From: an uncultured Candidatus Saccharibacteria bacterium
GTDB taxonomy: Bacteria; Patescibacteriota; Minisyncoccia; Phycocordibacterales; CSBR16-119
DNA length: 64,000 bases
Direction: 5' to 3'
Assembly (NCBI GenBank): GCA_964589975.1
Contig: CAZPVH010000005.1
Location: forward strand, 3,612 to 67,611
Each line of letters opens with the position of its first letter. The stretch's first letter is position 1. The notes beneath the pieces are model-generated. The model made no database searches. It worked only from the letters and a program-made list of their open reading frames with translations, and was not told the origin of the DNA. Made by a program: the position numbers and the translations under genes. Shown one piece after another: positions 3,550-63,843 of the stretch.

Positions 3550-3810
3550 TTAGCGGGGAAATACTTTCTTTTTCCACTTTTCAAATTCATCTACCACACT
3601 TTGACTCATTCCGAGATCTTGGACTGGATCAAAGTTTAGATTACTAAAATCCATTTGGACAGCACAGTCATTTTTATCGCACTGAGGACATCTCTTCTCT
3701 ACACTTGTAATCTCATTGTTTTCGTATTTAGTAAACATCCAACTATCTACATGTCCGGTGTACCCACAACCACCTTTGGAGGGTTTGCAGAGATAGATTC
3801 CTGATTTCAT
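3550..3810 (-). CDS. Small zinc-ribbon protein with acidic tail, paralog 2 (start adjusted to the internal Met MKSGIYL)
   Basis: Shares the pattern C-x-P-K/S-x-GGCG...W-x-F...CPxC...DPV-D-G-QS with the adjacent gene. Two CxxC-type pairs. Confidence 0.5.
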   Translation of the reverse strand: MKSGIYLCKPSKGGCGYTGHVDSWMFTKYENNEITSVEKRCPQCDKNDCAVQMDFSNLNFDPVQDLGMSQSVVDEFEKWKKKVFPR

Positions 3811-3868
3811 TTTTGTGTTGGTTTTTGTGTTCGTTGGAAGAAAGGTTGTAACAAGCAGGTGGTTCTTT

Positions 3869-4153
3869 CTATGCTGGTGACATAGAGGAGCTTTCATCAT
3901 CCCAGTCGTCGTCTGCATTAGATTGACCCAATCCGAAATCTCGAACCGGATCAGGGTTCATCAGCTTAATAGTTTCTTCACCAGCACCACAACTAGGGCA
4001 GGTCATTTCATGTTGTTCGTCTTCGTCACCATCCTCATCTTCCCAAAACATTGAACCCGTAAAGCGCCATTTCCAATCAAGTCCAGCGGCAACTCTTCCA
4101 CATCCGCCAAACTTAGGTGCACATATGAAGATTCTCTGCTTACTGTGACACAT
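3869..4153 (-). CDS. Small zinc-ribbon protein with acidic tail, paralog 1
   Basis: 94 aa, MCHSKQRIFICAPKFGGCG ... CPSCGAG ... DPVRDFGLGQS followed by an Asp-rich tail. Clear tandem paralog of 3550..3810. Confidence 0.5.
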   Translation of the reverse strand: MCHSKQRIFICAPKFGGCGRVAAGLDWKWRFTGSMFWEDEDGDEDEQHEMTCPSCGAGEETIKLMNPDPVRDFGLGQSNADDDWDDESSSMSPA

Positions 4154-4327: not shown

Positions 4328-5053
4328 ATGAACGAAGAAAAAGCCTTAAAATACTTCGGGCTTACTAATAAAGAATCCGCTGTATATTTGGCGCTTTTGA
4401 GCTTGGGAAGTTCGAATGTTACCGCTATTTCTACTACGGCAAAGATCAAACGTCCGACAACATATCTCATTTTAGAAGACCTCCGGAAGAAAGAATTGGT
4501 TTTGAAAGTCCCCCACGCGAAAAAGGCTATCTATACCGCCGTCGAACCAGATCATTTCTTCCATTCAAAGCTTGGAGATTTCAAAGAAGCCTTCAATGTC
4601 CTGCCAAAACTGAAAGCTCGATACAAAACCGAAGCAAAAGTTTCGACATCATATTTCGAAGGCGAAGAAGGGATAGAAGATGCGTTGTTTTATAAAAAAG
4701 ATGAATTAAAAGATTCTGAAATCGTCGGATTCTTCGCAAAGGGAACAAAAGTTAGCGAAAAACTTCTAGATGTCTCGCACGAATGGCGCAAAGAGATGAA
4801 GAAGCGAAACGTGACGCTCCGCGGTATCGCTCCAGAACACGAGACGCTCGAATCATTCCGTAAAACCGACAAAGATCTTGACCAAGTTTTCAAAAGCGTC
4901 GGTCTGGATGAATATTCATCAGATGTCTCGATAGAAGCCACGAATTCATTCGTCCGTATCGTCCTATTTGATTCGAAACAGGCAATCATTATTGAAAGTC
5001 CGGCTGTTGTGAAAACCGTTCGTGAAATCTTCGAGATGGTCTGGAAAAAATAA
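4328..5053 (+). CDS. TrmB-family HTH transcriptional regulator, paralog 1 of 4
   Basis: N-terminal winged-helix signature (ESAVYLALLSLG...ISTTAKIKRPTTYLILEDLRKKELV) similar to three other ORFs in the window (11446..12192, 19745..20506, 41379..42101). TTGACA-17-TACACT promoter upstream and a terminator hairpin at 5067-5095. Confidence 0.7.
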   Translation: MNEEKALKYFGLTNKESAVYLALLSLGSSNVTAISTTAKIKRPTTYLILEDLRKKELVLKVPHAKKAIYTAVEPDHFFHSKLGDFKEAFNVLPKLKARYKTEAKVSTSYFEGEEGIEDALFYKKDELKDSEIVGFFAKGTKVSEKLLDVSHEWRKEMKKRNVTLRGIAPEHETLESFRKTDKDLDQVFKSVGLDEYSSDVSIEATNSFVRIVLFDSKQAIIIESPAVVKTVREIFEMVWKK

Positions 5054-5128
5054 ATTAATTGTGAAATGAAAAACCCCGCACAAGGCGGGGTTGGGAATCT
5101 TTAACCATCTCCCTAGGTTCTGTTGGAC

Positions 5129-5377
5129 TCAAACAGTGTTAGCCTCTCGACCAACTTCCTGCTTCGTCTTGTCCGTCATCCTCTTAACGTCTTCATGAAG
5201 TCTTTCTACTTGGTCCTTCATGATCTCGCAGGCGAGCAGGTGGATTTGCTTGCACTCCGGATTGTCGAGGTCCTCGGTGACTTCGGCAAGCGATTTTTTC
5301 ACTTTATCGAAGGCTTCCCGTATCCGCTTTTCCAGGATGGCCTCAACGAACTTAAGGGCGGCTTCTTTCTTTTCCAT
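5129..5377 (-). CDS. Small hypothetical protein, 82 aa (start placed at MEKKEAALKF after the conserved CA-rich leader)
   Basis: ORF preceded by E1 copy A plus the shared CA-rich leader. Charged, helical-looking sequence. Confidence 0.35.
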   Translation of the reverse strand: MEKKEAALKFVEAILEKRIREAFDKVKKSLAEVTEDLDNPECKQIHLLACEIMKDQVERLHEDVKRMTDKTKQEVGREANTV

Positions 5378-5415
5378 GATGGGTCTGGTTTGTTGGTTTT
5401 TGTTTAAAGAACGTT

Positions 5416-5481
5416 CCACTCTTTGAAAACTCGAATCACTTCAAGTTCTCAAAAGTGGAGGCCAGCTGAGCAGGCCTCTTA
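5416..5481 (-). promoter_or_regulatory. E1 module copy A: terminator hairpin + approximately 46-bp imperfect palindrome + CA-rich leader
   Basis: CCACTCTTTGAAAACTCGAATCACTTCAAGTTCTCAAAAGTGGAGG followed by the hairpin GAGGCCAGCTGAGCAGGCCTC. Near-identical to copy B at 6861-6923. Confidence 0.55.
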
Positions 5482-5484
5482 CTT

Positions 5485-6279
5485 CTAGCCAGTGATCTCA
5501 TTGACCATGGCCTTGTGCGTCTCGACGATAAAGGGGTTGTCCTTGTCGTAGAGACCAACCGTGCTCGGCAAGATTGCTCGTGCAATCGTAATGAGCTCTT
5601 TGCGAGACAGATTCTCTGCATCAATAGCAATCAGGGCGAGACGCTCCTTCAAGCTTTTCGATGAAATCCATGCGGCCATCAAGCTTTCAAGCGCAGTCGC
5701 AACATGTTCGGGCATACCACTTGTTACCGGACCCTTCACCGCTACACTCTCAGAAATCTGAAAGTTTACAATGAAGCCGGGGGTGGTAGCTCGTCCACTC
5801 AACTGTTTGTGCTGTACCGCATAACCTCGTGATTCCACCAGAGCATAGAGCTTTGCTTCTTCAGCCTTGTTGTGAACATTCAGCTGGATTCGCAAGTGTC
5901 CCTTTTTGTCGAGACTTGGAAAATATTTCTTGACCCGTGGCTTGCACAAGGTGAGAAAATCATCCAAGTCTGGATTCAGAAAGGAATATGGTACAGCCCA
6001 GATCCGAGAGACCTTCCCGTCTTCGTGAATGTCGAACCTGACGCGAAGAGACCGGAATAATTCTTCCGACGTCGTTTTCTGTAGATCGAAGACCAAACGA
6101 AAACCTTCTTTGATTTGGGTTTGCTCAATGATCTTCGGCTCTACCAAGACTCCCTCTTTCTCAAGGAAACGTCTTTTAAGCTCCGATGCCAAGTTGATCA
6201 AAAGACTCCGGCCAGCGTGACCATGATCGTAAAGACCAAGGCAACCGGCTTTCGGTACAAGTTTTTTATACTGACGCAT
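5485..6279 (-). CDS. Hypothetical protein, 264 aa, driven by E2 copy b
   Basis: Long clean ORF. The start lies about 67 nt downstream of the E2 repeat on the minus strand. No family recognised. Confidence 0.5.
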   Translation of the reverse strand: MRQYKKLVPKAGCLGLYDHGHAGRSLLINLASELKRRFLEKEGVLVEPKIIEQTQIKEGFRLVFDLQKTTSEELFRSLRVRFDIHEDGKVSRIWAVPYSFLNPDLDDFLTLCKPRVKKYFPSLDKKGHLRIQLNVHNKAEEAKLYALVESRGYAVQHKQLSGRATTPGFIVNFQISESVAVKGPVTSGMPEHVATALESLMAAWISSKSLKERLALIAIDAENLSRKELITIARAILPSTVGLYDKDNPFIVETHKAMVNEITG

Positions 6280-6346
6280 GGTTTCTGCTTTTATGTAAAA
6301 GTGCTGACCTACAGACTACCACTTTTGTGGTAATTTGTCAATGTTA

Positions 6347-6408
6347 CCCTAAAGATTCGCGAACTGAATTCGTGAACCTTATAGAGAGGGGAAAGCTTTG
6401 CTTTCCCC
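6347..6408 (-). promoter_or_regulatory. E2 module copy b: hairpin + conserved 42-bp element with two near-palindromic TTCGYGAAC 9-mers
   Basis: CCCTAAAGATTCGCGAACTGAATTCGTGAACCTTATAGAGAG plus the hairpin GGGGAAAGCTTTGCTTTCCCC. TTGACA-17-TAGTCT lies just downstream on the minus strand. Confidence 0.55.
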
Positions 6409-6544
6409 TAGCGAGAGCGTTCGCTGGTGTTTGCCAGCACACAGTCATATTGAGGTTGGATTTCTCCAATACCCCGCTCTCTAAGTGTGCCCAGAAATGA
6501 GCCGATCTCGGCTTTGTGCTCCGGATGGGTCGCCGGCTGCGTCC

Positions 6545-6814
6545 TTACGCGCCTTCGTCGACGCTTACTCGCTCGACTCGGCCATACTTCTCGAGGATAC
6601 GAGACATTTCTGCCACGAATTCCTCAAAAGAAGTGAAGTGATCCTCGACCCACGGATTGCATCCGGCAGTCTTCTGGCATCCCGCCACAAAGGTGTTGAC
6701 CCGAGGCCGATAACCAGCCATCGCAGAAATTTCACACAGCCTATCTACGACTTGGAAATTCTCGTAGGTTTGGACAGCCAGACGAAGCTTCGTGATCTCA
6801 GAAATCATGATCAT
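6545..6814 (-). CDS. Small hypothetical protein, 89 aa (MIMISEITKL...); start placed after the E1-B leader
   Basis: Protein-like tail of the over-long ORF-track entry 6545..7261. The ATG sits directly after the conserved leader CTTTAAAACAAAAC...ACCCAC. Confidence 0.4.
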   Translation of the reverse strand: MIMISEITKLRLAVQTYENFQVVDRLCEISAMAGYRPRVNTFVAGCQKTAGCNPWVEDHFTSFEEFVAEMSRILEKYGRVERVSVDEGA

Positions 6815-6860
6815 GTGGGTTTTAATCTGACCGTTTTGTTTTAAAGAGCTCTGAGTGTTT

Positions 6861-6923
6861 CCACTCTTTGAAAACTCGAATTGCTTCAAGTTCTCAAAAG
6901 TGGAGGCCCGCCGAGCGAGCCTC
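6861..6923 (-). promoter_or_regulatory. E1 module copy B
   Basis: Differs from copy A by 2 nt in the core. The downstream leader on the minus strand, CTTTAAAACAAAACGG..AAAACCCAC-ATG, is conserved. Confidence 0.55.
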
Positions 6924-6938
6924 TCCTTCTTCGTGCAC

Positions 6939-7124
6939 CTAATCACTCTCGTTGCGATCGTTGATCGCATCCTGCATGTCGACCAAGCTGTGCAGCTTGT
7001 CGTCACGGTTGGTCTCGCAGGATCGCGACGAGGCAACCAGCCACTCGTTACGGGACGAACGCTCGTCCGCGCAGGCGAACTGCTCGTCAAAGAAGCTCCC
7101 GCAACAGACTTGTCGGTATACCAT
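6939..7124 (-). CDS. Small Cys-rich hypothetical protein, 61 aa
   Basis: ORF-track entry. The start lies about 40 nt downstream of E2 copy c on the minus strand. Contains CC and C-x-x-x-C. Confidence 0.3.
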   Translation of the reverse strand: MVYRQVCCGSFFDEQFACADERSSRNEWLVASSRSCETNRDDKLHSLVDMQDAINDRNESD

Positions 7125-7164
7125 GGTGGTGGGGGTGTTAGGTGGGTTATGTAAAGGTACAATT

Positions 7165-7235
7165 CCCTAAAGATCCGCGAACTGAATTCGTGAACCTTAT
7201 AGAGAGAAGAATATAGTCGTGAGAAAATATTCTTC
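7165..7235 (-). promoter_or_regulatory. E2 module copy c
   Basis: CCCTAAAGATCCGCGAACTGAATTCGTGAACCTTATAGAGAG (1 mismatch versus copy b) plus the hairpin GAAGAATATAGTCGTGAGAAAATATTCTTC. Confidence 0.55.
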
Positions 7236-7389
7236 TGTCTACATATTTGGCAATATTCCACTAAAGCAAAACAAATTTCTTTGCGTTGCTTAGAATGCGG
7301 TCGAACTTTAATATGGGGGTCGACCTAAATTTCAGCCCCTGAGCCCGTAAAAATTTCTTAAACCGGTACTCTTTTGTTTTTTCCCGCCT

Positions 7390-7683
7390 CTACAGGATCG
7401 GCAGATCCAAGGCTTCTCGGAAGAGCGCCTTGATCTCCTCGTCGGACATCTCCGACTTCGGCTTCGAAAGTCCGACCCAGAGAGTACGTCCGCCTCGCGG
7501 GAAGCGGTCATGCAGGTGGCCGTAGTCAACCTCGAGCTTCTTCACCTTAACCACGCTTCGCACATGATAGATGCGAGCTTGGCACGTCGAGCAGTGTCCC
7601 TGCTCGGCGACCTCGAAGTAGAGGCAGCCTTCATGTTCCAAGATCTCACGGCGAGTCTGCCATCCGGCAAGTGCAACCATCAT
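7390..7683 (-). CDS. Small hypothetical protein, about 97 aa (start at MMVALAGW after a CA-rich leader)
   Basis: The conserved leader TTAAAACAAAAAAACCAAAACCCCCCACACCC runs immediately into ATGATG. The upstream residues of the ORF-track entry are leader translation. Confidence 0.4.
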   Translation of the reverse strand: MMVALAGWQTRREILEHEGCLYFEVAEQGHCSTCQARIYHVRSVVKVKKLEVDYGHLHDRFPRGGRTLWVGLSKPKSEMSDEEIKALFREALDLPIL

Positions 7684-8049
7684 GGGTGTGGGGGGTTTTG
7701 GTTTTTTTGTTTTAAGGAACATTTCTGTTTCGCTCTTTTGAGCTCATCAGCGCGAACATACATTCGCGGACAGACAGGAGGAGACAGTGACGTCTCCTCC
7801 CCAGCGTAGAGAGTGATCATCTCTCTATCGCTGTACCCATTTTTTTCTTGTACATGACGGTACAATTGTCGCTTACGAGATCCGTGTCTCGCTGGGGTGC
7901 GCAACAAGAGCTTTTTCCTTCACGGGTTTTTGGTTGTGATTGCAACCATCTATCCGTCTTTGGGCTGGCGCTCAAGCCCTCGCAGTTTCTTCTAAAGAAC
8001 TTTCCCTTCTTCGTAGGCACTTCACTTCAAACTCAAGCCGATATCGCAC

Positions 8050-8388
8050 TTACTGAACGACACAATGGAGAAAAAGCGTGTCATTCATCCACCTGTGTAC
8101 AGTATCTAGCTCATCAATCAGCCTACTGGGGCCATCCCCGCAATCGGCATAATGGAAATCGGCTGAGCTGAAACGATTGATGTCTGACCCTACTACCTGA
8201 CACGTTTGAAGATAGAGCTGATAGTGCTCCCTCGTAAACGGGAATCCTACCAGATGCTTATTTCGCGTCTGGTCTACAAGACAAGACAACTTGGCAAACA
8301 ATCTTGCGATTGTTGGCGCATTGAAGCCGTTGATCATTGTGTCGGCGTATATTGTCATATCACCGACCTTTAAAGTGACTGCCTCCAT
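8050..8388 (-). CDS. Hypothetical protein, 112 aa, driven by E2 copy a
   Basis: Clean ORF. E2 repeat 36-75 nt upstream on the minus strand. Confidence 0.45.
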   Translation of the reverse strand: MEAVTLKVGDMTIYADTMINGFNAPTIARLFAKLSCLVDQTRNKHLVGFPFTREHYQLYLQTCQVVGSDINRFSSADFHYADCGDGPSRLIDELDTVHRWMNDTLFLHCVVQ

Positions 8389-8423
8389 TTTTGCTTTTTA
8401 ATGTACAAGTAATCGGGCGCAGA

Positions 8424-8491
8424 CCCTAAAGATTAACGAACAGAATTCGTAAACCTTATAAGGGGGAGGAGATGTTACAGCATCTCCTCCC
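8424..8491 (-). promoter_or_regulatory. E2 module copy a (more diverged)
   Basis: CCCTAAAGATTAACGAACAGAATTCGTAAACCTTATAAGGGGG plus the hairpin GGAGGAGATGTTACAGCATCTCCTCC. Abuts the 15-nt motif AAGTAATCGGGCGCAG. Confidence 0.5.
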
Positions 8492-8693
8492 TGCAGACTT
8501 CATCGACCACCCGCCTTCAGGGTGGGTCTGCTCGATCCAACTTTATTCCCCCAACATTACTTTTCGCCTGACTTGTCCGGCGACAAAAAGCAGTCGGGGC
8601 CCAGATAATCTAGCTTTGCTCTTAGGCAGCAAAGTGTCGACTGTCCTTCTTGCGGATTGGAATCCCGCTTGTGCATCGTTTTGGAAAGAACTT

Positions 8694-8757
8694 CCACATT
8701 TGAAAATTCGAATGTCTTCAAATACTCAAATGTAGGGAGAAGGCTTTGCCTTCTCCC
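8694..8757 (-). promoter_or_regulatory. E1 module copy C (diverged), immediately downstream of rsr
   Basis: CCACATTTGAAAATTCGAATGTCTTCAAATACTCAAATGTAGG plus the hairpin GGGAGAAGGCTTTGCCTTCTCCC. Followed on the minus strand by a 39-codon ORF (8557..8676). Confidence 0.45.
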
Positions 8758-8833
8758 ACAGATCTACCCCGGAGCCCCCGCCCCTCGATCTGTTTATTAC
8801 ACACCTATGGGCATAGGTGGCGAACGCCCGAGC

Positions 8834-10441
8834 TCACTTGCAGAAGTCTGCGATGAGGCTCGGCACGTTGGAGTCAAACCCAACCAGGTCGAGCATGCCA
8901 GCGTCACTAGGGTCTGCAATACTGAAGTCCGTGGACATCGTAGAGCAGACAACCAGCTTCGCGGGAATGCCCATCTCCTGTCGGTACCGCTTGAGCGCCT
9001 GAGACGGGTGGATTTCTCCAGCCCACGTCTCGTTATCCGTCCAGATCTGAAAAACGTCGACCGGAGTCTTCGCCCTCAGAGCATGGAGGATCGGCAGCGA
9101 GCAGTCGGTACCACCGAAATTGAGACCGTTCACCGCATGCATGTTGTCATCGAGCCTCTTGCGAGGTGAGACGTTCATGTCCTGCAGGCCGGTTCCACTT
9201 CTCCATCCGCGGTCAGCGGAAGTAAAAGCTTTCAGGTGATAGTTGCTTTCGGTCTTCATGACCGCCATGATCATAGCCATTGAGGCCTGCATAGCATTCA
9301 TGAATGGCATCCCAGCAACAGGGCTGTCCCACATCGAGCCGGACACATCCAGTCCGACGAAGATCCTCTTCCCGGTCGCTTCCAGATTCCCGAAGGAACC
9401 GTAGAAAGCGGCGTCAAGAATATCGATCACTCGCTGGACCGGCTTCCAGGTCAATGAGCCGCGCGCGCTCTTCCCGCTTGCGTACGTCACCAGTGCGGCG
9501 AGTACGTTCACAGGGTGGATCCTGGCCTTTTTCAAAGCGACAGGATCCGCGAGCTTCTGCTCGACGACTTTGAGCGCTCCGCTCATCGGCACAATGAGGC
9601 CGTTAGCCGTCATGCGCGCCAAGTTACGAAGCACCGCGGTCATCGGCATACCGGGCAAGAGGGCTTCCCATACCTTCGGGTCGCCGAGGAGCTCGGTTGG
9701 AACGAGCTCCCAGGTTACGCCTTGGTAGTCACCGATGATCTTCACCGCTTCCGCTGCCGTGGTGGCCGCTTGAAGCTTGGTGAAGGCCTCGATGATTTTC
9801 GGGACGCCATCCCCCATCTTTTCCTGAGCCACCCAACGGAACAAGTCCTGGTGCGCTTCGGAAGACGAGTGACTCTTGCGGAGCAGGTCGCGAAGCGACC
9901 AGCCCGAGCGTTGACGATATTTGACAGCTTGGTATGCCAGCTTCTCAGCCGACATGCTCGTCAAATATCCTGCCCAGCCGTTACGGTACTGACGGCTCCA
10001 CGTTCTGCCGAGCTGTTTCGCATTTTCAGCGAAAGCATAGGCGAACGAAAGAGTCCGGAGGACCGCAGGCATGGCCATAAGCGCATACTTCCTGGTTGCC
10101 TCATCGGCAAACTTCGGAGATGCAGCCATGGCGAGGACGAACAGAGCAGGGTCTTGCTTTGCAGCGCGACCCTCCGTCGAAAGTTCGACGACCGTGTCAA
10201 CGACACGCTTTCCGTTCATCTTCAAGCAACGCTGCACGGCTTCGGCATTATCAGTCGTGAGCTCGCGCCCGCCGACGTAGTAGCTGCCGCCGTCGCTACC
10301 AAGGATAATGAACCGCTCAAGGCGCTTCCAATCATCTACCGGGTAAGCGAAACCCCCGGCATTGTTCATCACCATGTTCGATCCTGGAATCGGAGCGTCT
10401 TGTGACGTCCTTTCCGTAGAAAAGTGCTGGGTGTATCTCAT
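8834..10441 (-). CDS. rsr: Ro60-like RNA-binding protein Rsr (TROVE domain with C-terminal vWA/MIDAS domain)
   Basis: N-terminal NNAGGFAYPVDDWKRLERFIILGSDGGSYY matches the conserved TROVE N-terminus of Ro60/Rsr. C-terminal LDVSGSM (a DxSxS MIDAS motif) with downstream T and D residues. GC-rich relative to neighbours. Its 5' leader is the same CA-rich leader used by the adjacent small genes. Confidence 0.8.
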   Translation of the reverse strand: MRYTQHFSTERTSQDAPIPGSNMVMNNAGGFAYPVDDWKRLERFIILGSDGGSYYVGGRELTTDNAEAVQRCLKMNGKRVVDTVVELSTEGRAAKQDPALFVLAMAASPKFADEATRKYALMAMPAVLRTLSFAYAFAENAKQLGRTWSRQYRNGWAGYLTSMSAEKLAYQAVKYRQRSGWSLRDLLRKSHSSSEAHQDLFRWVAQEKMGDGVPKIIEAFTKLQAATTAAEAVKIIGDYQGVTWELVPTELLGDPKVWEALLPGMPMTAVLRNLARMTANGLIVPMSGALKVVEQKLADPVALKKARIHPVNVLAALVTYASGKSARGSLTWKPVQRVIDILDAAFYGSFGNLEATGKRIFVGLDVSGSMWDSPVAGMPFMNAMQASMAMIMAVMKTESNYHLKAFTSADRGWRSGTGLQDMNVSPRKRLDDNMHAVNGLNFGGTDCSLPILHALRAKTPVDVFQIWTDNETWAGEIHPSQALKRYRQEMGIPAKLVVCSTMSTDFSIADPSDAGMLDLVGFDSNVPSLIADFCK

Positions 10442-11021
10442 GACGAGGGTTTTTGGTTAGGTTTGTTTTTTGAAAGACCGGAGAGACCAGAAGCGGATAA
10501 GGTGTGAAGAAAGGGTTAAAGATGGCGGCCAAAGCTCGCCATCCAGGTCAAATATTTGGGTAACCTTCCTTCTTCGACCCGCTTCTGGTCTCAATTATCA
10601 ATGCTCGAAACATGCTTTCGAGCGGATTTTGAGAGAAATATTAGTGATTTCTTCCAAAATCCGCCCAAGAGCCAACTGTATACTAATCAATCGAAGCCAT
10701 ATAAATATATTTTGCTTGATCCAGATCAGTTTTGTTGCTGTTGTTTTGAGACTGTTCTAAATGTTTCTGGGTAAAGCTTAGCAGATTCGAAATGATTTGT
10801 CAAGTATTTTTGTCGAGAATTCTATTTTTTGTCAGAATAGCCTTATTTTACAACATATTTTTGTTTATGTAAAAAAACAAAAATTGACTATTTTTATTTA
10901 TTCTTGAAAATATTTTTGCAAATAAAATAATTATTTTTCTAATACGTCAAAGATTGTTTTTGAATGAAAACTTATAAAATCTTGCAGTGAAATACTTTTT
11001 TGGAACTAATTTAAATATAGT

Positions 11022-11440
11022 TGACAAAAAATGACATGTCTGATATACTCCCCCCAGATGTGATTCATAGCTCAAGCGTTCATGGGAAGCGGGTTATCTG
11101 CATAGACAAAGAGAAATCTACGCAGAAATGATGGGTATCCAGACAATTACGATGACTGGAACCCAGATGTGAACAGTCACAGAACCGTCCCACACCTAAC
11201 CTCACGGCCATGAACGACTAGGGAGCACCCGTCCTGCATCCGCCAGCCCACCCTTTGTGGGCGGCGGATGCGGAAGGGTCACCTCGAGCAATCAATTCGC
11301 AGTAAGCACATGCACGACTAGAACAGAAGACATGGAAAACCTCATTGGAAATGGTCAGGATCACTACCCCTGACCACGCACCACAGTCATGAATGACTGA
11401 AGAGAACAAGAGCCCGCAACGGATGTTGCGGGCTCTCTTT
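11022..11440 (+). ncRNA. Candidate structured non-coding RNA (about 390 nt) with its own sigma70-like promoter and intrinsic terminator; class unknown
   Basis: TTGACA (11022-11027), 17 bp, TATACT. No ORF over 25 codons on the plus strand. Strong internal hairpins (11236-11275, 11364-11387). Ends in a GC hairpin plus T-run at 11404-11440. The motif CATGMAYGACTRG occurs three times. Confidence 0.5.
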
Positions 11441-11445
11441 TTTAT

Positions 11446-12192
11446 TTATTTGGATCCGCCAAAGGCGAGCTTGAACAAACTTCGGAGCGTTTCAGCCACA
11501 TCAGCGCTTTTTATAAAAATCGTACCAGCATGCTTGCCGAATATGTGAATCCTAACGCTTTCATTGTATATTCCAATTTCCGCTTTTATAGGATATTTTT
11601 CAGGATCTATCCTCTTTCTGTCCATTGTTATATCGGATGTATACTCGCCTTTGGAATATGAGTAGATTGAAACTATTTTTACGTTTTTTTCAATTCTTTT
11701 TTTCTTTACAGGCTCAAGCTCTTTTGGAGTAAAACTCTTCTCCACTTCATCGCGCGGATAAATCACATACATGAGACCGCCTTCTCCTCCGTCAAACATA
11801 TTTCTTGCCGATCGCAGAATCTCTTCCTGACCAGTGTAGTATTCGACGATGGGCCTCTCGCCAAGTCCTCTTGCCACTGCTTTGAATTTCGGGACCATAT
11901 CTTTTACGATCTTCGACTGTTCTGAAAGTTTTATCTTCTGCTCCTCTATATAGCTCTCTATTCTCTCCGGCGGGAGAGCGTGGATGTAAGTTTTTTCATT
12001 TTTCGTTATCTCCTCTACCAAACCTTTTTCAGTAAGAGAATCTATGACTGGATAAATAGTTGTTCTGTTAATTTTAGTTTTTTTGGAAATTTCTGCCACA
12101 TTTGGCTCATCCACCGTCAGCAAGAACATATAGACCTTTGCTTCTTTATCTGACAAACCAACCTCGACGAGAAATTTTTCTAGGTTTTCCAT
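11446..12192 (-). CDS. TrmB-family HTH transcriptional regulator, paralog 2 of 4
   Basis: N-terminus SDKEAKVYMFLLTVDEPNVAEISKKTKINRTTIYPVIDSLTEKGLV. Confidence 0.7.
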   Translation of the reverse strand: MENLEKFLVEVGLSDKEAKVYMFLLTVDEPNVAEISKKTKINRTTIYPVIDSLTEKGLVEEITKNEKTYIHALPPERIESYIEEQKIKLSEQSKIVKDMVPKFKAVARGLGERPIVEYYTGQEEILRSARNMFDGGEGGLMYVIYPRDEVEKSFTPKELEPVKKKRIEKNVKIVSIYSYSKGEYTSDITMDRKRIDPEKYPIKAEIGIYNESVRIHIFGKHAGTIFIKSADVAETLRSLFKLAFGGSK

Positions 12193-28866: not shown

Positions 28867-29328
28867 CTATTCTTTCTTCCAGGAGATCACCACATGGCGT
28901 CCACGGCCGGTGCCGGCCGACTCGGATTCAATGTCGCCATGTTTAGAGACATATTCATGAACAATTCGTCGCTCGTAAGCATTCATCGGCTCTAGCTCAA
29001 TTTTACTTTTGAAAAAGCGGGCTCTTTCGGCCATCATATGCGCCACTGTTTTTATCCTCTCAATCTTTTCTTTCTGATAGCCGTTAATGTCGAGCATCAC
29101 TCGCGGCGCTTCCTCTCCATGCTTCTTCTCGACAATTCGCCTCAATAGAAAATTTATGTTCTGAAGACCTTCGCCGTCGCGACCGACAAGGTGGCGTGAA
29201 TCGTTCGAGCGAACGCTTGCCACATATGATCCCGAATCCATATCGAGAATGATATCCAATGAGTCAAAATGAAAACCCGCTTTTGTTAGAAATTCTTCGA
29301 TCAGATTTTTGATGTCAGTTTCTAACAT
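28867..29328 (-). CDS. jag: Jag/KhpB-like RNA-binding protein (KH + R3H)
   Basis: 153 aa with an R3H-like C-terminus (YERRIVHEYVSKHGDIESESAG) directly downstream of yidC, the canonical position. Confidence 0.65.
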   Translation of the reverse strand: MLETDIKNLIEEFLTKAGFHFDSLDIILDMDSGSYVASVRSNDSRHLVGRDGEGLQNINFLLRRIVEKKHGEEAPRVMLDINGYQKEKIERIKTVAHMMAERARFFKSKIELEPMNAYERRIVHEYVSKHGDIESESAGTGRGRHVVISWKKE

Positions 29329-47064: not shown

Positions 47065-47170
47065 CCACGGTCCGTATAGATGAGGTCGGGGGGAAGGTTC
47101 GCCTTCCTCCCTCACTCTTAAGTTCTTGAAAGGTTCGAGAATTTAAAGGTGTTATCAAATCATCAAACAT

Positions 47171-61169: not shown

Positions 61170-62111
61170 TTAGTTTTTATTGGTTAGTGATTGGTGGGCC
61201 GGGCAGAAGTGGGCTGAGCGGCCGCCGACCACAAGACGAATTATAACACCTTTGCACCCTTGCTTCGAACAGCGTTCGCCGGCCTTTTGATAGACATGAT
61301 GCTTGTTCTGGAACTTGCCCGGCAGACCGTAAATGTTTCTATAGTCGGACATTGAGTCCCCGCCGAAATCTATGCCGCGTTTCAAAAGCGGTTTCATTCT
61401 GGAATACATTTTCTTCATTTTTATTTCTGGAATATTTTGGACACGCTCTTCCGGATGGATGCCGGCTTCCCAAAGCATCTCATCGGAATAAATATTTCCG
61501 ATTCCGGAAATTAGAGTTTGGTCCATCAAGACATTTTTTATTCTTCCAGTATCTCTTTTTAAAATCTGTGACTTGAAAGTTTTGTAATCCATTTTGGGAT
61601 CAAGAGCGTCGATCCCCAGATCTTTCAGGTGTTTGGTGTTCGCAGATTCTTTGGTTTCAAAAAAAGTAACTTTCCCGAATTTTCTGGAGTCGCAAAAAGC
61701 GAGCGAGTAACCGTTTGATAGAGAAAATAAAACACGGACGAATCTGTTGTAAGGATCCTGCAAGTTCTTATTATCAGACCACCACGGCCAATCGTGAAAT
61801 TCTTCTCCGTCAGATTTTTTTCCAACGCGATATTTGCCGTACAAAAGGTGTCCGGTCATCTTCATGTGAATCAAAACTGTTTTTGAATCCTGTAGATGTA
61901 TCAAAATATTTTTTCCACGGCGTTCAGCGCGCAGAATTTTTTTGCCGATGATTTCAGATTTGAATTTGTTCCAGAAATTTAAATTCTTTACCTCATCCTT
62001 TTTCGCGTGAGATTTCTTTGGAAGGGAAGACCAAGCATCAACAATTTTTAACCCCTTCACGGTTTCGTTCAATCCATTTACAGTTGTTTGCACTTCGGGT
62101 AACTCTGGCAT
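61170..62111 (-). CDS. mutM: Formamidopyrimidine-DNA glycosylase (Fpg/MutM/Nei family)
   Basis: N-terminal MPELPEV (catalytic Pro2 and Glu3). C-terminal zinc finger C-x2-C-x16-C-x2-H-like (CSKQGC...HFCPAHQ). Confidence 0.8.
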   Translation of the reverse strand: MPELPEVQTTVNGLNETVKGLKIVDAWSSLPKKSHAKKDEVKNLNFWNKFKSEIIGKKILRAERRGKNILIHLQDSKTVLIHMKMTGHLLYGKYRVGKKSDGEEFHDWPWWSDNKNLQDPYNRFVRVLFSLSNGYSLAFCDSRKFGKVTFFETKESANTKHLKDLGIDALDPKMDYKTFKSQILKRDTGRIKNVLMDQTLISGIGNIYSDEMLWEAGIHPEERVQNIPEIKMKKMYSRMKPLLKRGIDFGGDSMSDYRNIYGLPGKFQNKHHVYQKAGERCSKQGCKGVIIRLVVGGRSAHFCPAHQSLTNKN

Positions 62112-63267: not shown

Positions 63268-63843
63268 TTATCGTCCCAAAATTTTTAGAGCTTCTTTGAT
63301 TCGAGCGTTCGTGCCCACAACATCAGCCGGGATTTCCTTGGCCGCGTTCCTGGCGTCATTTAGAGAGTAGCCAAGGGACTGCAGTGCTTCCAGGACGTCC
63401 GACTCACCGCGAAGGCTGCCGGTTTCGTCTTTGTGTCCAAGGGCTGAAAGCTTGTCGCGGAGTTCCACCACAATCTTTTCGGCGGTCTTTCGGCCGATGC
63501 CGGAAACTTTGGTGAGGTAAGAAGTGTCGCCTGAACCAATGGCTTTCTTTATGGTTATCATTGGCGCGATTGATAGTATGGAAAGCGCGCTTCGCGGACC
63601 GATGCCGGAAACAGAGAGAAGCAGCTCAAAGAAATTTTTCTCATCGATTGTTTCAAATCCAAACAGGTCCATGGCGTTCTCTCGCACAGCCATGTATGTC
63701 CAGAGTTCGGTTGTTTCTCCGAGTGCGGGGGAGCGTGACAGAACATCGGTCGAAACGAAGACCTGGTAGCCAACGCCGCCCGTTTGAAGGATGAGGGACT
63801 TGTCGGTCTTTTGGATAATTTTGCCTGTAATCTGGGCGATCAT
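63268..63843 (-). CDS. ruvA: Holliday junction DNA helicase subunit RuvA
   Basis: MIAQITGKII...GGVGYQVFV OB-fold N-terminus, tandem HhH motifs (LLSVSGIGPRSALSIL and KVSGIGRKTAEKIV), 191 aa. Confidence 0.85.
   Translation of the reverse strand: MIAQITGKIIQKTDKSLILQTGGVGYQVFVSTDVLSRSPALGETTELWTYMAVRENAMDLFGFETIDEKNFFELLLSVSGIGPRSALSILSIAPMITIKKAIGSGDTSYLTKVSGIGRKTAEKIVVELRDKLSALGHKDETGSLRGESDVLEALQSLGYSLNDARNAAKEIPADVVGTNARIKEALKILGR

What the first reader, a model, noticed from the sequence alone, without database searches (positions are those of the whole stretch)
5100..10600. Rsr/Ro60 (TROVE+vWA) locus embedded in an array of small genes driven by two alternating, repeated terminator-promoter modules
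Reading the minus strand from high to low coordinates, the order is: rsr, E1-C, a 39-codon ORF, E2-a, a 112-aa gene, a degenerate E1 plus leader, a 97-aa gene, E2-c, a 61-aa Cys-rich gene, E1-B, an 89-aa gene, E2-b, a 264-aa gene, E1-A, an 82-aa gene. E1 and E2 strictly alternate. E1-A and E1-B are near-identical over about 90 bp including the 5' UTR, and E2-b and E2-c differ at one position. Repeated promoter modules driving unrelated small proteins next to a Ro60 ortholog is not an arrangement I recognise. Bacterial rsr loci normally carry Y RNAs and RtcB/RtcR. The small proteins could be cargo, for example toxins/antitoxins or RNA-acting factors. Alternatively the modules could themselves encode Y-RNA-like decoys: E1 contains T-loop-like CTCGAATC/TTCGAAT heptads inside a two-tiered hairpin.
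Basis: partly seen in the sequence, partly recalled or inferred. Interest (0 to 1): 0.85.

Follow-up and report, generated by a model that had tools for sequence, protein, structure and literature searches.

The report
Hairpin- and ribozyme-punctuated small-gene operon with Ro60
The repeats are real, but they are conserved RNA stem-loop modules, one slot holding a hammerhead ribozyme, that separate the genes of one long operon in an ultrasmall (CPR) bacterium; they are not promoters or Y RNAs, and the true Y-like RNA lies just upstream of the Ro60 gene.

Summary
The gene order and both repeat families are present as described and occur far more often than chance. The interpretation does not hold.

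- **Not promoters:** E1 and E2 contain no promoter of the local type (TTGACA-N17-TAnnnT). Only two such promoters exist, at 10775-10803 and 6313-6341. There is one canonical terminator, at 5072-5092.
- **What the modules are:** each junction has a variable GC hairpin, then a conserved 17-20 bp hairpin (E1 or E2), then an A/U-rich leader without a Shine-Dalgarno site. Pairing is kept by compensatory changes, includes a conserved G·U pair, and scores strongly on the sense strand only.
- **Hammerhead:** the "degenerate E1" is a type III hammerhead ribozyme (7722-7776). Hammerheads recur in four homologous arrays. The closest relative carries E2 at the orthologous junction.
- **Locus type:** it is a variable small-gene array next to a TrmB-family regulator in Candidatus Paceibacterota. 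Unrelated ORFs are swapped between conserved non-coding modules. The rsr gene is cargo in this lineage only.
- **Y RNA:** a Y-like RNA (10483-10592) sits 40 nt upstream of rsr. A model built only from RNAs at other rsr loci finds it (E 2e-6).

Most likely, the modules partition one polycistronic RNA into separately stable, translatable units. Which nuclease acts on E1 and E2 is unknown.

The parts
10775..10803 (-). Array promoter P1: -35 TTGACA at 10798-10803, a 17-nt spacer, and -10 TAAGCT at 10775-10780.
   Evidence: Read directly from the sequence. The same ACTTGACAAA-N17-TA(A/G)NNT arrangement heads the homologous arrays in L033, L036, L039 and L043. The consensus scan did not list it because its -10 hexamer matches only 3 of 6 positions.
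10614..10672 (-). Long, near-perfect hairpin of about 25 bp in the leader transcript, between P1 and the Y-like RNA. It may be a processing site.
   Evidence: Inverted repeat I2. The fold gives -45 kcal/mol for 10600-10740 with z -5.8. There is no Rfam family match.
10483..10592 (-). Y-like RNA of about 110 nt. It has a 16-bp terminal stem, a bulged C, the motif GGGUCGAAG-AAG-GAAGGUUACC in the 5' strand, and a branched interior.
   Evidence: The stem is a 14-nt arm pair with 100% complementarity (I17). The fold gives -57.9 kcal/mol with z -6.8. The GNCGAAN0-1G Rsr-binding motif of Chen et al. 2014 is present (PMC4201824). The motif CGAA-N4-GARGGTTAYC occurs only in loci that carry rsr. A covariance model built only from the RNAs at L047 and L049 hits 10490-10586 on the minus strand at 39 bits, E 2e-6.
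8834..10441 (-). rsr, the Ro60 ortholog (535 aa, TROVE plus vWA domains).
   Evidence: Pfam PF05731 at 1.2e-33 and PF25045 at 4.7e-57. The nearest homologs are only about 50% identical.
8677..8757 (-). Module 1: GC hairpin A (8735-8757), E1-C hairpin B (8695-8734) and the leader GUUCUUUCCAAAACG.
   Evidence: Fold gives -39 kcal/mol with z -4.8. Covariance model R1 scores it 58.5 bits.
8557..8676 (-). 39-codon ORF directly behind the E1-type leader. Whether it is coding was not tested.
   Evidence: ORF list and the position of the leader motif.
8424..8491 (-). Module 2: GC hairpin A (8464-8491) and the E2-a hairpin (8424-8463).
   Evidence: Fold gives z -4.3. Covariance model R3 scores it 63.6 bits. 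The orthologous module lies upstream of the 97-aa gene in L040.
8050..8388 (-). 112-aa gene with no family match.
   Evidence: It is absent from the closest relative, L040.
7777..7800 (-). GC hairpin A preceding the hammerhead. It ends 8 nt before the predicted cleavage site.
   Evidence: Fold.
7722..7776 (-). Type III hammerhead ribozyme. The predicted cleavage is after GUC, between 7769 and 7768. The leader GUUCCUUAAAACAAAA follows at 7705-7720.
   Evidence: Rfam RF00008 scores it 44.2 bits against a gathering score of 48.5, E 2.4e-7. All core nucleotides are consensus. Stems I and II covary with the hammerheads in L039 and L043.
7390..7683 (-). 97-aa gene, a member of a conserved CxxC family that marks these arrays.
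7165..7389 (-). Module 4: a structured 3'UTR segment, hairpin A (7205-7236) and the E2-c hairpin (7165-7204). The leader CCUUUACAUAA lies just outside this range, at 7147-7157.
   Evidence: Fold. Covariance model R3 scores it 68.2 bits. The 3'UTR is almost identical in L040 and shows a compensatory change.
6939..7124 (-). 61-aa Cys-rich gene.
   Evidence: pN/pS is 0.17 against L031 and 0.37 against L040.
6832..6924 (-). Module 5: hairpin A (6903-6923), the E1-B 20-bp hairpin with a GCAA loop, and the leader CUCUUUAAAACAAAA.
   Evidence: Covariance model R1 scores it 102 bits on the sense strand and 24 bits on the antisense strand.
6545..6814 (-). 89-aa gene. The relatives start at the second ATG.
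   Evidence: pN/pS is 0.12-0.13. In L040 an unrelated 87-aa ORF occupies the same place between the same modules.
6344..6544 (-). Module 6: a roughly 135-nt branched 3'UTR domain, hairpin A (6388-6408) and the E2-b hairpin (6347-6386).
   Evidence: RNAalifold on four orthologs predicts 59 pairs, 11 of them with compensatory changes. Covariance model R3 scores it 71 bits.
6313..6341 (-). Internal promoter P2 (TTGACA-N17-TAGTCT), inside a 47-nt insertion between E2-b and the UUUUACAUAA leader.
   Evidence: Read directly from the sequence. It is 100% conserved in L031. L036 has a similar TTGACA-N17-TAGTCT.
5485..6279 (-). 264-aa orphan gene.
   Evidence: The only homolog is a strain variant at 95% identity. 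pN/pS is 0.17.
5395..5479 (-). Module 7: hairpin A, the E1-A 20-bp hairpin with a GUGA loop, and the leader GUUCUUUAAACAAAAA.
   Evidence: Covariance model R1 scores it 83 bits. Hairpin A shows a compensatory change in L031.
5129..5377 (-). 82-aa gene, predicted to be helical, and the last cistron of the operon.
5064..5092 (-). Canonical intrinsic terminator that ends the operon.
   Evidence: Terminator scan: an 8-bp stem with 6 GC pairs followed by TTTCATTT.
11446..12192 (-). TrmB-family regulator gene. It lies upstream of the array, on the same strand, and is syntenic with the array in related genomes.
   Evidence: Pfam TrmB at 8.5e-16. The TrmB-then-array arrangement recurs in L033, L036, L039, L041 and L042-44.
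47088..47170 (+). A further E1-type module (GC hairpin, long hairpin, A-rich leader) upstream of a 499-aa FN3-like gene.
   Evidence: Covariance model R1 scores it 27.3 bits, E 7e-4. Sequence read. Pfam result for the gene.

Best explanation
**What the locus is.** Window 10.8 kb to 5.07 kb on the minus strand is one long operon of a Candidatus Paceibacterota (CPR) chromosome. It has a consensus promoter, one internal promoter and a single canonical terminator. It belongs to a locus type that recurs next to a TrmB-family regulator in related genomes: a strain-variable array of small genes of unknown function. In this lineage the array has acquired rsr together with a Y-like RNA, which is transcribed immediately upstream of rsr.

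**What E1 and E2 are.** They are sense-strand RNA elements. Each intercistronic module has three parts:
- hairpin A, a strong GC hairpin of variable sequence;
- hairpin B, directly abutting it, a conserved 17-20 bp hairpin (E1 or E2 type) with a conserved base, a single bulge and a variable apex;
- a conserved A/U-rich leader without a Shine-Dalgarno site, ending at the next AUG.

**How it most likely works (inferred).** The modules divide the polycistronic RNA into units with their own stability and translation.
- Hairpin A acts as a 3'-end protector and a leaky terminator.
- Hairpin B is either cleaved, with RNase III the obvious candidate for about 20 bp of dsRNA, or serves as a protective 5' stem-loop.
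- The leader loads ribosomes in a genome that lacks Shine-Dalgarno sites.
- At the 112-aa/97-aa junction a type III hammerhead ribozyme fills the same slot and would cut 8 nt after hairpin A.

**Shown versus inferred.** Shown: the structures, their covariation, the strand specificity, the absence of promoter signals, the hammerhead core, the module/ORF mosaic and the membership of the Y-RNA family. Inferred: cleavage, the nuclease involved, and the effects on stability and translation.

**Side effect.** Because the modules are repeated and conserved, they also form the scaffold between which ORFs are exchanged among strains.
For: **One operon**
- The only canonical terminator is at 5072-5092.
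- Promoters of the conserved local type occur only at 10775-10803 and 6313-6341.

**RNA structure**
- All seven modules fold much better than shuffled sequence, with z from -3.0 to -6.6.
- E2: 94% of cells are paired, 5 pairs show compensatory change, and a G·U pair is conserved.
- E1 type: 88% of cells are paired and 15 of 20 pairs show compensatory change. This alignment was fitted to the model, which favours pairing.
- The 200-nt E2-b module has 59 predicted pairs, 11 of them compensatory, in four orthologs.

**Strand specificity**
- Sense-strand scores are 53-102 bits and antisense scores are at most 26 bits.
- In 11 new loci there were 14 sense-strand hits and 1 antisense hit.

**Purifying selection**
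- The modules are nearly invariant between strains, while synonymous sites of the flanking genes differ by 13-46%.

**Hammerhead in the same slot**
- Window: 44.2 bits, E 2.4e-7.
- L039: 38.4 bits. L043: 41.8 bits. L057/58: 38.4 bits.
- The core is invariant and stems I and II covary.
- L040 has hairpin A plus E2 upstream of the orthologous 97-aa gene, where the window has hairpin A plus the hammerhead.

**Precedent**
- Clustered hammerheads flank single genes and cleave polycistronic RNA in vitro (Perreault 2011, PMC3088659; review PMC6765202).

**Translation context**
- Only 1 of 37 genes in the window has a Shine-Dalgarno core.

**Scaffold**
- Unrelated 89-aa and 87-aa ORFs lie between identical E1/leader and 3'UTR modules.
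- L032 has different genes after the same module.

**Y RNA**
-.
Against: - No transcript data exist, so co-transcription, cleavage and RNA ends are all inferred.
- Hairpins A and B abut with no single-stranded linker, which is awkward for RNase Y/E-type cleavage.
- E2 has only 17 bp with a bulge and a mismatch, which is short for a classical RNase III site.
- In L043 a hammerhead and an E1-type module occur in the same intergenic region. The two are therefore not always alternatives.
- All four hammerheads score below the Rfam gathering threshold of 48.5 bits.
- Hairpin A is followed by the U-rich 5' arm of hairpin B, so partial termination is possible and would give a similar anatomy.
- The E1 pair counts come from an alignment fitted to the model, and several E1 and E2 copies are close relatives of each other.
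Confidence: 0.55

Rival explanations
1. Each E1 or E2 is a terminator-promoter cassette: hairpin A terminates the upstream gene, and the conserved part is a promoter that drives the next small gene independently.
For: - Hairpin A is followed by a U-rich stretch, such as CACUUUUGAG or UCUCUAUA. In L033 one copy has a true U6 tract.
- One junction does carry a genuine promoter, just after E2-b at 6313-6341.
- The region has more promoter-like sites than shuffled sequence, 14 against 5.3, but these lie in the AT-rich stretch at 10.8-11.05 kb.
Against: - No sigma-70-like match lies inside the conserved E1 or E2 sequence.
- The promoter form conserved across homologous loci (TTGACA-N17-TAnnnT) is absent from E1 and E2.
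- What is conserved is base pairing, with compensatory changes and G·U pairs. Promoter hexamers are not conserved.
- None of the module hairpins passes the terminator rule that the two real terminators pass.
- A ribozyme sits in an equivalent slot.
Confidence: 0.1
2. E1 and E2 are DNA-level recombination sites, analogous to integron attC sites. They mediate capture and shuffling of ORF cassettes, and the hairpins are cruciform or single-stranded DNA substrates.
For: - The array content differs between strains exactly at module boundaries.
- Unrelated ORFs lie between identical modules.
- The homology between L032 and the window breaks inside E2, after CTCTATAAGGT.
Against: - No integrase or transposase lies in or next to the array in the window.
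- E1 and E2 have no RYYYAAC/GTTRRRY core sites (read directly from the sequence).
- The conserved G·U pairs and strongly asymmetric strand scores point to RNA rather than DNA pairing.
- The modules include a leader that ends at the start codon.
- Ordinary homologous recombination between repeated modules would explain the mosaic.
Confidence: 0.1
3. E1 and/or E2, possibly together with hairpin A or the 3'UTR domain, are new self-cleaving ribozyme classes that do the same job as the hammerhead.
For: - They occupy the slot that a hammerhead fills at another junction, and E2 replaces the hammerhead at the orthologous junction in L040.
- This kind of association is how twister was first recognised as a ribozyme, because it shares neighbouring genes with hammerheads (PMC6765202).
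- The E2-b module is a roughly 200-nt multi-helix RNA with covariation.
- There is no Rfam match.
Against: - E1 and E2 are essentially simple, nearly perfect hairpins. They have no conserved multi-helix junction or pseudoknot, which are typical of ribozyme active sites.
- The 3'UTR domains are not shared by all modules.
- In L043 a hammerhead and an E1-type module coexist in one spacer.
Confidence: 0.07
4. The hairpins are operators for an RNA-binding protein. Candidates are the roughly 55-aa basic protein or the 97-aa CxxC protein that mark these arrays, or Rsr itself. The protein would control translation of each cistron, and no cleavage would be involved.
For: - The conserved base of the stem with a single bulge, beneath a variable apex, is typical of protein-recognition hairpins.
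- The modules sit 15-45 nt upstream of start codons.
- The arrays share conserved small proteins of unknown function.
Against: - The window's array lacks the roughly 55-aa basic protein.
- E2 is confined to one close group of strains, whereas the proteins are widespread.
- This model does not explain the hammerheads.
Confidence: 0.1
5. E1 and E2 are Y-RNA-like small RNAs or decoys for Rsr.
For: - They lie close to rsr.
- They form stable stems.
Against: - They have no GNCGAA motif (read directly from the sequence).
- They do not match Rfam Y_RNA or YrlA.
- The covariance model built from Y-like RNAs does not hit them.
- E1-type modules are present in arrays that have no rsr. E2 also occurs on short related-strain contigs that carry no rsr, although rsr cannot be excluded in those strains.
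- A genuine Y-like RNA exists at 10483-10592.
Confidence: 0.03

Closest known systems
Clustered hammerhead ribozymes that flank single genes in bacterial or prophage operons (Perreault et al. 2011), and the gene neighbourhoods shared by twister and hammerhead ribozymes
   Same: - Type III hammerheads lie in sense orientation in the spacers between small, poorly annotated, co-directional genes.
- The gene content between them is variable.
- The proposed role is to cut a polycistronic RNA into gene-length mRNAs.
   Different: - Here most spacers carry non-ribozyme hairpin modules (E1 and E2) instead of ribozymes.
- The host is a CPR bacterium.
- No phage genes or integrase are nearby, and the marker protein has no relatives in viral contigs.
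- A TrmB-family regulator gene is syntenic with the array.
- The hammerheads score just below the Rfam gathering threshold.
RNase III processing hairpins between cistrons of phage T7 early mRNA, and stabilising 5'/3' stem-loops in bacterial operon mRNAs (from general knowledge)
   Same: - Stem-loops of about 20 bp with small bulges sit between cistrons of one long transcript.
- After cleavage a hairpin would remain at the new 3' end.
- The downstream cistrons are translated separately.
   Different: - Cleavage has not been shown here.
- Each module has two abutting hairpins.
- The conserved leader lacks a Shine-Dalgarno site.
- E2 has only 17 bp.
- The elements form two sequence families that are repeated within a single operon.
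Bacterial and metazoan Y RNAs (D. radiodurans Yrn1, YrlA/YrlB, nematode sbRNAs)
   Same: - The candidate lies immediately upstream of rsr on the same strand.
- It is about 110 nt long with a long terminal stem and a bulge.
- It carries the GNCGAAG motif in the 5' strand.
- Relatives at other rsr loci weakly match the Rfam nematode family RF01656 at 25-36 bits. From my own knowledge, that family consists of sbRNAs, the nematode Y RNA homologs.
   Different: - No tRNA-like (YrlA) domain was detected.
- It does not match Rfam Y_RNA or YrlA.
- It is a single copy here, whereas L047 and L049 carry 5-6 tandem copies.
- RtcB and RtcR are absent.
Integron gene-cassette arrays and E. coli REP/BIME mosaics
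   Same: - Small, unrelated, co-oriented ORFs are separated by imperfect palindromes.
- The cassette content varies between strains.
- Two kinds of palindrome are combined in mosaics.
   Different: - There is no integrase.
- There are no attC core sites.
- The pairing is RNA-like and strand-specific.
- The elements are concentrated in one operon rather than dispersed across the genome.

Membership tests
Hammerhead ribozyme, type III (RF00008) | Conserved catalytic core: C3 U4 G5 A6 N7 G8 A9, G12 A13 A14, the A15.1-U16.1 pair, and H17 at the cleavage site. | tested here: met
   The window sequence reads UCUGUC^CGCGAA..UUCGCG-CUGAUGAG-CUC-AAAA-GAG-CGAAAC-AGA. Every core position matches the consensus (alignment; criteria from PMC3088659).
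Hammerhead ribozyme, type III (RF00008) | Three helices around the core, supported by covariation. | tested here: met
   Five stem I pairs and two stem II pairs change on both sides among the window, L039 and L043. In stem III, read directly from the sequence, a G-C pair becomes A-U in L039.
Hammerhead ribozyme, type III (RF00008) | A score at or above the Rfam gathering threshold of 48.5 bits. | tested here: not met
   The scores are 44.2 bits in the window, 38.4 in L039, 41.8 in L043 and 38.4 in L057/58. The E-values range from 2e-7 to 1e-4.
Hammerhead ribozyme, type III (RF00008) | Site-specific self-cleavage. | not testable with these tools
   This needs in vitro transcription of about 7700-7810 on the minus strand.
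Ro60/Rsr | A TROVE (HEAT-repeat ring) domain followed by a vWA domain. | tested here: met
   PF05731 at 1.2e-33 and PF25045 at 4.7e-57.
Y RNA (Rsr-associated) | Encoded next to rsr, 80-130 nt long, with a long stem formed by the 5' and 3' ends. | tested here: met
   The candidate spans 10483-10592, 40 nt upstream of the rsr ATG. It has a 16-bp terminal stem and folds at -57.9 kcal/mol with z -6.8.
Y RNA (Rsr-associated) | The GNCGAAN0-1G (vertebrate GGUCCGA-like) motif in the 5' strand. | tested here: met
   GGGUCGAAG lies at the top of the 5' strand. The extended motif is found only in rsr loci.
Y RNA (Rsr-associated) | Homology to RNAs at other rsr loci. | tested here: met
   Covariance model R2, built from the L047 and L049 units only, scores the window candidate 39 bits at E 2e-6. 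It finds nothing in loci without rsr.
YrlA subfamily / Rfam Y_RNA | A tRNA-like domain (T and D arms), or a match to the Rfam model. | tested here: not met
   There is no Y_RNA or YrlA match even at E up to 10 in a 1-kb search.
Y RNA (Rsr-associated) | Binding to Rsr. | not testable with these tools
   This needs Rsr immunoprecipitation or a gel-shift assay.
Sigma-70-type promoter (claimed for E1 and E2) | -35 and -10 hexamers with a 16-18 nt spacer inside the conserved element. | tested here: not met
   The scan lists no site within conserved E1 or E2 sequence. The locally conserved form TTGACA-N17-TAnnnT is absent from them.
Intrinsic terminator (claimed for hairpin A) | A GC-rich stem followed directly by a U tract. 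| tested here: inconclusive
   None of the seven hairpins A passes the scan's rule of at least 5 T in 8 nt. Each is nevertheless followed by a sequence with 4-5 U, so leaky termination cannot be excluded.
Integron attC | A linked IntI integrase and R''/R' core sites (RYYYAAC and GTTRRRY). | tested here: not met
   No integrase lies in or beside the array. The core sites are absent from E1 and E2 (read directly from the sequence).
REP/BIME-type dispersed palindromes | Many copies dispersed across the genome. | tested here: not met
   E2 has no copies outside the locus in the 64-kb window. The E1 type has one diverged copy outside it.
RNase III substrate | About two turns of dsRNA. | tested here: inconclusive
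   E1 has 20 bp with one bulge. E2 has 17 bp with one bulge and one mismatch. Cleavage cannot be tested with these tools.
Known Rfam families, including pistol, hatchet, twister, twister-sister and the RAGATH motifs (tested for E1, E2 and the 3'UTR modules) | A covariance-model match. | tested here: not met
   Only chance-level matches to unrelated families appear, at E from 0.1 to 10.

The most novel reading that the evidence does not exclude
E1 and E2, together with their flanking hairpin and 3'UTR domains, could be undescribed RNA-processing motifs, possibly self-cleaving. They would be functionally interchangeable with hammerheads. On this reading, the TrmB-linked arrays of Paceibacterota are an RNA-punctuated cassette system in which conserved non-coding modules, rather than genes, are the heritable scaffold. 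The capture of rsr and its Y RNA would link Ro60 RNA surveillance to an operon that produces many highly structured fragments ending in a cyclic phosphate or a 5'-OH.
Probability: 0.1. Interest if true: 0.85.

Novelty: new variant of a known kind. Interest (0 to 1): 0.62.

Why it matters
- **A tractable case for bacterial hammerheads.** What bacterial hammerheads do is a long-standing open question. Here, ribozymes and two families of non-ribozyme hairpins occupy equivalent slots in one operon, and a hammerhead and E2 are swapped at an orthologous junction. This makes the idea that ribozymes are one of several interchangeable intercistronic processing devices directly testable.
- **A new locus type in CPR bacteria.** The work defines a recurrent, hypervariable, TrmB-linked small-gene locus in Paceibacterota. 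It adds two structured RNA motif families that have no Rfam match.
- **A wider range for Y RNAs.** It extends Ro60-associated Y-like RNAs to CPR bacteria. This includes a family that occurs in tandem arrays at other rsr loci.
- **A caution for annotation.** Repeated intergenic palindromes in genomes without Shine-Dalgarno sites should not be read as promoters.

Tried and rejected
- **Exact-pattern scans for E1 and E2.** Viral contigs gave 0 hits. JGI metagenomes gave 0 hits. A loose E2 pattern in GTDB genomes gave 28 hits, all of them chance matches with no hairpin.
- **Phage origin.** BLASTN of 5100-8830 against phage records found nothing. The 97-aa family has no relatives in viral contigs. 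PHROGs gave no hits.
- **Defence system.** PADLOC gave only noise.
- **Rsr neighbours as a route to related arrays.** The nearest Rsr proteins are only about 50% identical and lie in unrelated contexts. They were useful only for the Y RNA.
- **RNAalifold on a MAFFT alignment of divergent E1-type hairpins.** This failed because the alignment was out of register. A covariance-model alignment replaced it.
- **K-turn and T-loop readings of E1 and E2.** Rejected by inspection.
- **Literature.** The searched library contains no paper that links hammerheads with Patescibacteria, or hammerheads with Rsr.

Full report

Mostly yes.
- On the minus strand, rsr (8834-10441) matches Pfam TROVE at 1e-33 and vWA_Ro60 at 5e-57.
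- Seven co-directional ORFs follow: a 39-codon ORF, then ORFs of 112, 97, 61, 89, 264 and 82 aa.
- E2 has three copies at 6347-6386, 7165-7204 and 8424-8463. The expected number of chance matches is 0.00.
- E1 has three copies ending at 5414, 6859 and 8695. The expected number of chance matches is 0.02.
- The E2-b and E2-c cores differ at one base. E1-A and E1-B are 91% identical over 66 nt.
- The main error is the 'degenerate E1 plus leader'. It is a GC hairpin (7777-7800) followed by a type III hammerhead ribozyme at 7722-7776 (Rfam RF00008, 44.2 bits against a gathering score of 48.5, E 2.4e-7), and then the leader motif shared with E1.
- 'Strict alternation' therefore depends on a misidentified element. 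It also fails in related strains: L040 has E2, E2, E2, E1, E2, and L032 has E1, E2, E2.

**2. Host and type of locus**

- The window is a bacterial chromosome. It encodes DnaA, Pol I, RNase Y, PBP1A and PilB.
- Its DnaA falls in a 90%-identity cluster that is named Candidatus Paceibacterota, a CPR lineage.
- The small proteins match nothing in Pfam, PHROGs or PADLOC.
- They are real genes all the same. Against related strains pN/pS is 0.12-0.37.
- The 97-aa protein belongs to a conserved CxxC family.
- The genomic contexts of this family define a recurrent locus. Its order is:
  - a TrmB-family regulator gene and its terminator;
  - 1-2 kb of non-coding DNA with structured RNAs;
  - an AT-rich region ending in a TTGACA-N17-TA(A/G)NNT promoter;
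  - an array of small genes with no Pfam matches (usually a roughly 55-aa basic protein, the 97-aa protein and variable others);
  - a terminator.
- The window matches this plan. TrmB is at 11446-12192, promoter P1 at 10775-10803 and the terminator at 5072-5092.
- Only the window's lineage carries rsr. Its nearest Rsr homologs are about 50% identical and lie in unrelated contexts. rsr is therefore cargo in the array.

**3. What E1 and E2 are**

*Anatomy.* Every spacer has the same layout:
- hairpin A, a strong GC hairpin whose sequence differs at each junction;
- hairpin B, directly abutting it, which is conserved;
- a conserved A/U-rich leader that runs to the next ATG.

E1 is a 20-bp stem with one bulged A and, in most copies, a GNRA-type loop. 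E2 is a 17-bp stem with a bulged U, an A·C mismatch, and an invariant base (AAGGU paired with AUCUU) that contains a G·U pair. The leader is GUUCUUUAAAACAAAA after E1 and after the hammerhead. A similar sequence follows the Y-like RNA. After E2 the leader is CUUUACAUAA.

*Not promoters.*
- The consensus scan finds no promoter inside conserved E1 or E2 sequence.
- Promoters of the locally conserved form occur only at P1 and at P2 (6313-6341).
- P2 lies in a 47-nt insertion between E2-b and its leader. It is 100% conserved in L031 and resembles a promoter in L036.

*Not canonical terminators.* None of the module hairpins passes the rule that the real terminators at 5072-5092 and 11408-11437 pass. 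The U-rich 5' arm of hairpin B could still allow leaky termination.

*RNA structures.*

| Element | Sequences compared | Cells paired | Pairs with compensatory change |
|---|---|---|---|
| E2 | 11 copies from 4 strains | 94% | 5 |
| E1 type | model-fitted alignment across arrays | 88% | 15 of 20 |
| E2-b whole module (about 200 nt) | 4 orthologs | 59 predicted pairs | 11 |

- The E2 pairing includes a G·U pair that is conserved.
- The E1-type alignment was fitted to the model, which favours pairing.
- Hairpin A of E1-A and of E2-b shows compensatory changes in L031.
- Scores are strongly strand-specific: 53-102 bits on the sense strand and at most 26 bits on the antisense strand.
- In 11 further metagenome loci, 14 of 15 E1-type hits are on the sense strand.
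- The modules are almost invariant between strains, while synonymous sites of the flanking genes differ by 13-46%.

*Distribution.*
- E2 is confined to the close group of the window, L031, L032 and L040.
- E1-type modules occur in many arrays: L033, L041, L042/43, L052, L054 and L056-L060.
- One more E1-type module lies in the window at 47088-47170, upstream of an FN3-like gene.
- No Rfam family matches E1, E2 or the 3'UTR domains.

**4. The hammerhead and the module slot**

- The window hammerhead has every consensus core nucleotide, a GUC cleavage triplet, and stems of 6, 4 and 5 bp. Cleavage would fall between 7769 and 7768, 8 nt after hairpin A.
- Homologous arrays carry further type III hammerheads in sense orientation in spacers:

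| Locus | Coordinates | Bits |
|---|---|---|
| window | 7722-7776 | 44.2 |
| L039 | 4542-4596 | 38.4 |
| L042/43/45 | L043 3811-3866 | 41.8 |
| L057/58 | 4794-4848 | 38.4 |

- Stems I and II covary while the core stays invariant.
- In L040, the closest relative (its 97-aa protein is 91% identical), the junction upstream of the orthologous 97-aa gene carries hairpin A plus an E2 variant instead of hairpin A plus a hammerhead. Relative to L040, the window has an insertion running from the 112-aa gene to the hammerhead, bounded by the leader motif.
- This fits the published picture. Clustered bacterial hammerheads flank single genes and cut polycistronic RNA in vitro, and their biological role is unresolved (PMC3088659; PMC6765202).
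- One caveat applies. In L043 a hammerhead and an E1-type module share one spacer, so the two are not always alternatives.

**5. Proposed mechanism**

- *Shown:* one strongly promoted transcription unit with a single canonical terminator. It is punctuated by conserved, strand-specific RNA structures and one ribozyme. The genome has essentially no Shine-Dalgarno sites (1 of 37 genes).
- *Inferred:* the modules partition the polycistronic RNA.
  - Hairpin A protects the new 3' end and may attenuate transcription.
  - Hairpin B is either a double-strand-specific cleavage site, with RNase III the obvious candidate, or a protective 5' stem-loop.
  - The unstructured leader loads ribosomes.
  - The hammerhead does the cutting autonomously where it is present.
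- I put about 0.8 on 'RNA-level intercistronic elements, not promoters or Y RNAs'. I put about 0.55 on the processing and stability mechanism.

**6. The modules as a scaffold**

- Between the window and L040, the E1 hairpin and proximal leader are identical, and the roughly 135-nt 3'UTR domain is closely conserved. The ORFs between them (89 aa and 87 aa) are unrelated.
- L032 carries two different genes behind the same 84/89-aa gene, and its array ends directly at the exoIII gene.
- The non-coding modules are therefore the conserved framework and the ORFs are exchangeable.
- Homologous recombination between repeated modules is enough to explain this. I found no integrase and no attC-like core sites.

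**7. The Y RNA**

- Immediately upstream of rsr, at 10483-10592 on the minus strand, lies a 110-nt RNA. It has a 16-bp terminal stem, a bulged C and a branched interior, and folds at -57.9 kcal/mol with z -6.8.
- Its 5' strand carries GGGUCGAAG. This matches the GNCGAAN0-1G Rsr-recognition motif of bacterial Y RNAs (PMC4201824).
- The two nearest rsr loci I fetched (L047/48 and L049) carry 5-6 tandem small RNAs with the same extended motif, GCCGAAG-N3-GAGGGUUACC.
- That motif occurs only in rsr loci among the 49 loci fetched at that point.
- These RNAs have a covarying structure, with 18 pairs of which 10 are compensatory.
- They weakly match Rfam RF01656. From my own knowledge, that family consists of nematode stem-bulge RNAs, which are Y RNA homologs.
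- A covariance model built only from the L047 and L049 units finds the window element at 39 bits, E 2e-6. It finds nothing in loci without rsr.
- The element does not match Rfam Y_RNA or YrlA, and no tRNA-like domain is evident.
- The locus therefore does have its Y RNA, and E1 and E2 are not needed for that role.

**8. Verdict**

- The repeats are real and under selection, but 'alternating terminator-promoter modules' is the wrong reading.
- The locus is a new variant of a known kind: a ribozyme- and hairpin-punctuated operon. It contains two undescribed RNA motif families, sits in a CPR-specific variable array, and has a captured Ro60/Y-RNA pair.
- Interest is moderate to high, because it offers a concrete test bed for the function of bacterial hammerheads.
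- The bolder possibility is that E1 and E2 are themselves catalytic, or that the array is a true cassette system. This is not excluded, but I consider it unlikely (about 0.1).

Noticed in passing
window 11021-11445 (+): promoter at 11021-11049; motif copies at 11209, 11309 and 11388; terminator at 11409-11436: A strong divergent promoter (TTGACA-17-TATACT with an upstream TG) points away from the array, toward a bidirectional terminator. The roughly 390-nt transcript it would produce contains three copies of CATG-NAY-GACTR. These read as mini-ORFs (Met-x-Asp-stop), and each lies next to a strong hairpin. The expected number of chance matches is 0.07. One copy of ATGNNNGACTAR occurs at the same place (between TrmB and the array promoter, on the opposite strand) in all ten array loci that include that region (L033-37, L039, L041-44). 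Its function is unknown.
   Followed up: partly
L033 9040-9800 and L040 1-650: A non-coding region of about 700 nt, GC-rich and apparently highly structured, is conserved between two arrays, for example ...ACGCCGGCCAGCG..TGCAATAAG... . No Rfam family matches it. It may be a large undescribed ncRNA that the array carries instead of rsr.
   Followed up: no
L041 2561-2680 (+): A 120-nt element inside an array matches Rfam tmRNA at 57.5 bits, above the gathering score of 47. The match covers only the tRNA-like ends, and the roughly 290-nt mRNA/pseudoknot part is missing. It could be a minimal tmRNA-like RNA or a remnant.
   Followed up: no
L047 2545-3010; L049 6640-7180; L047 4650-5000: Other rsr loci, probably also CPR, carry 5-6 tandem Y-like RNAs upstream or downstream of rsr. 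L047 also has a run of roughly 44-nt tandem repeats (GGTACCAGTACCAGACATTACTACTAAAATGGAAT...) just downstream of rsr.
   Followed up: partly
whole window, for example upstream of 28867-29328, 57882-59981, 61170-62111 and 63268-63843: The genome has almost no Shine-Dalgarno sequences (1 of 37 genes). Many genes have a TAnAAT-like -10 box only 7-10 nt before the ATG, which suggests widespread leaderless mRNAs.
   Followed up: partly
window 47088-47170 (+): A diverged E1-type module (GC hairpin, long hairpin, A-rich leader) lies upstream of a 499-aa FN3/purple-acid-phosphatase-N-like gene. The module type is therefore not exclusive to the rsr array.
   Followed up: partly
window 3550-4153 (-) and 4328-5053 (+): Between the array terminator and the exoIII gene lie two overlapping small ORFs of 122 and 94 aa, each with CxxC...CxxC motifs, and a second TrmB-family gene that converges on the array. 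In strain L032 the array terminator is followed within about 100 nt by the exoIII gene, so this block is also variable.
   Followed up: no
protein P0135 (625 aa), found: One homolog of the 97-aa array protein contains about 10 tandem copies of the domain.
   Followed up: no
L033, L039, L040 and L043 arrays: Several variable array ORFs begin with a lipoprotein-like or transmembrane signal, for example MKRILIVVFTAVVFVSC, MNKFILFVLATLILSGC and MKKLVFLVFLGLIFVLPSC. This hints that much of the cargo consists of surface or secreted proteins.
   Followed up: no
L039 4936-5056 and 5350-5450: Two spacers in this array share a different conserved element, GAGCTRTGRGG...GCACAATAGCTTAGTGAAAGC... . It has a possible pseudoknot, with AGCUAU pairing to AUAGCU in a hairpin loop, and no Rfam match. 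It may be a third type of intercistronic RNA module.
   Followed up: no
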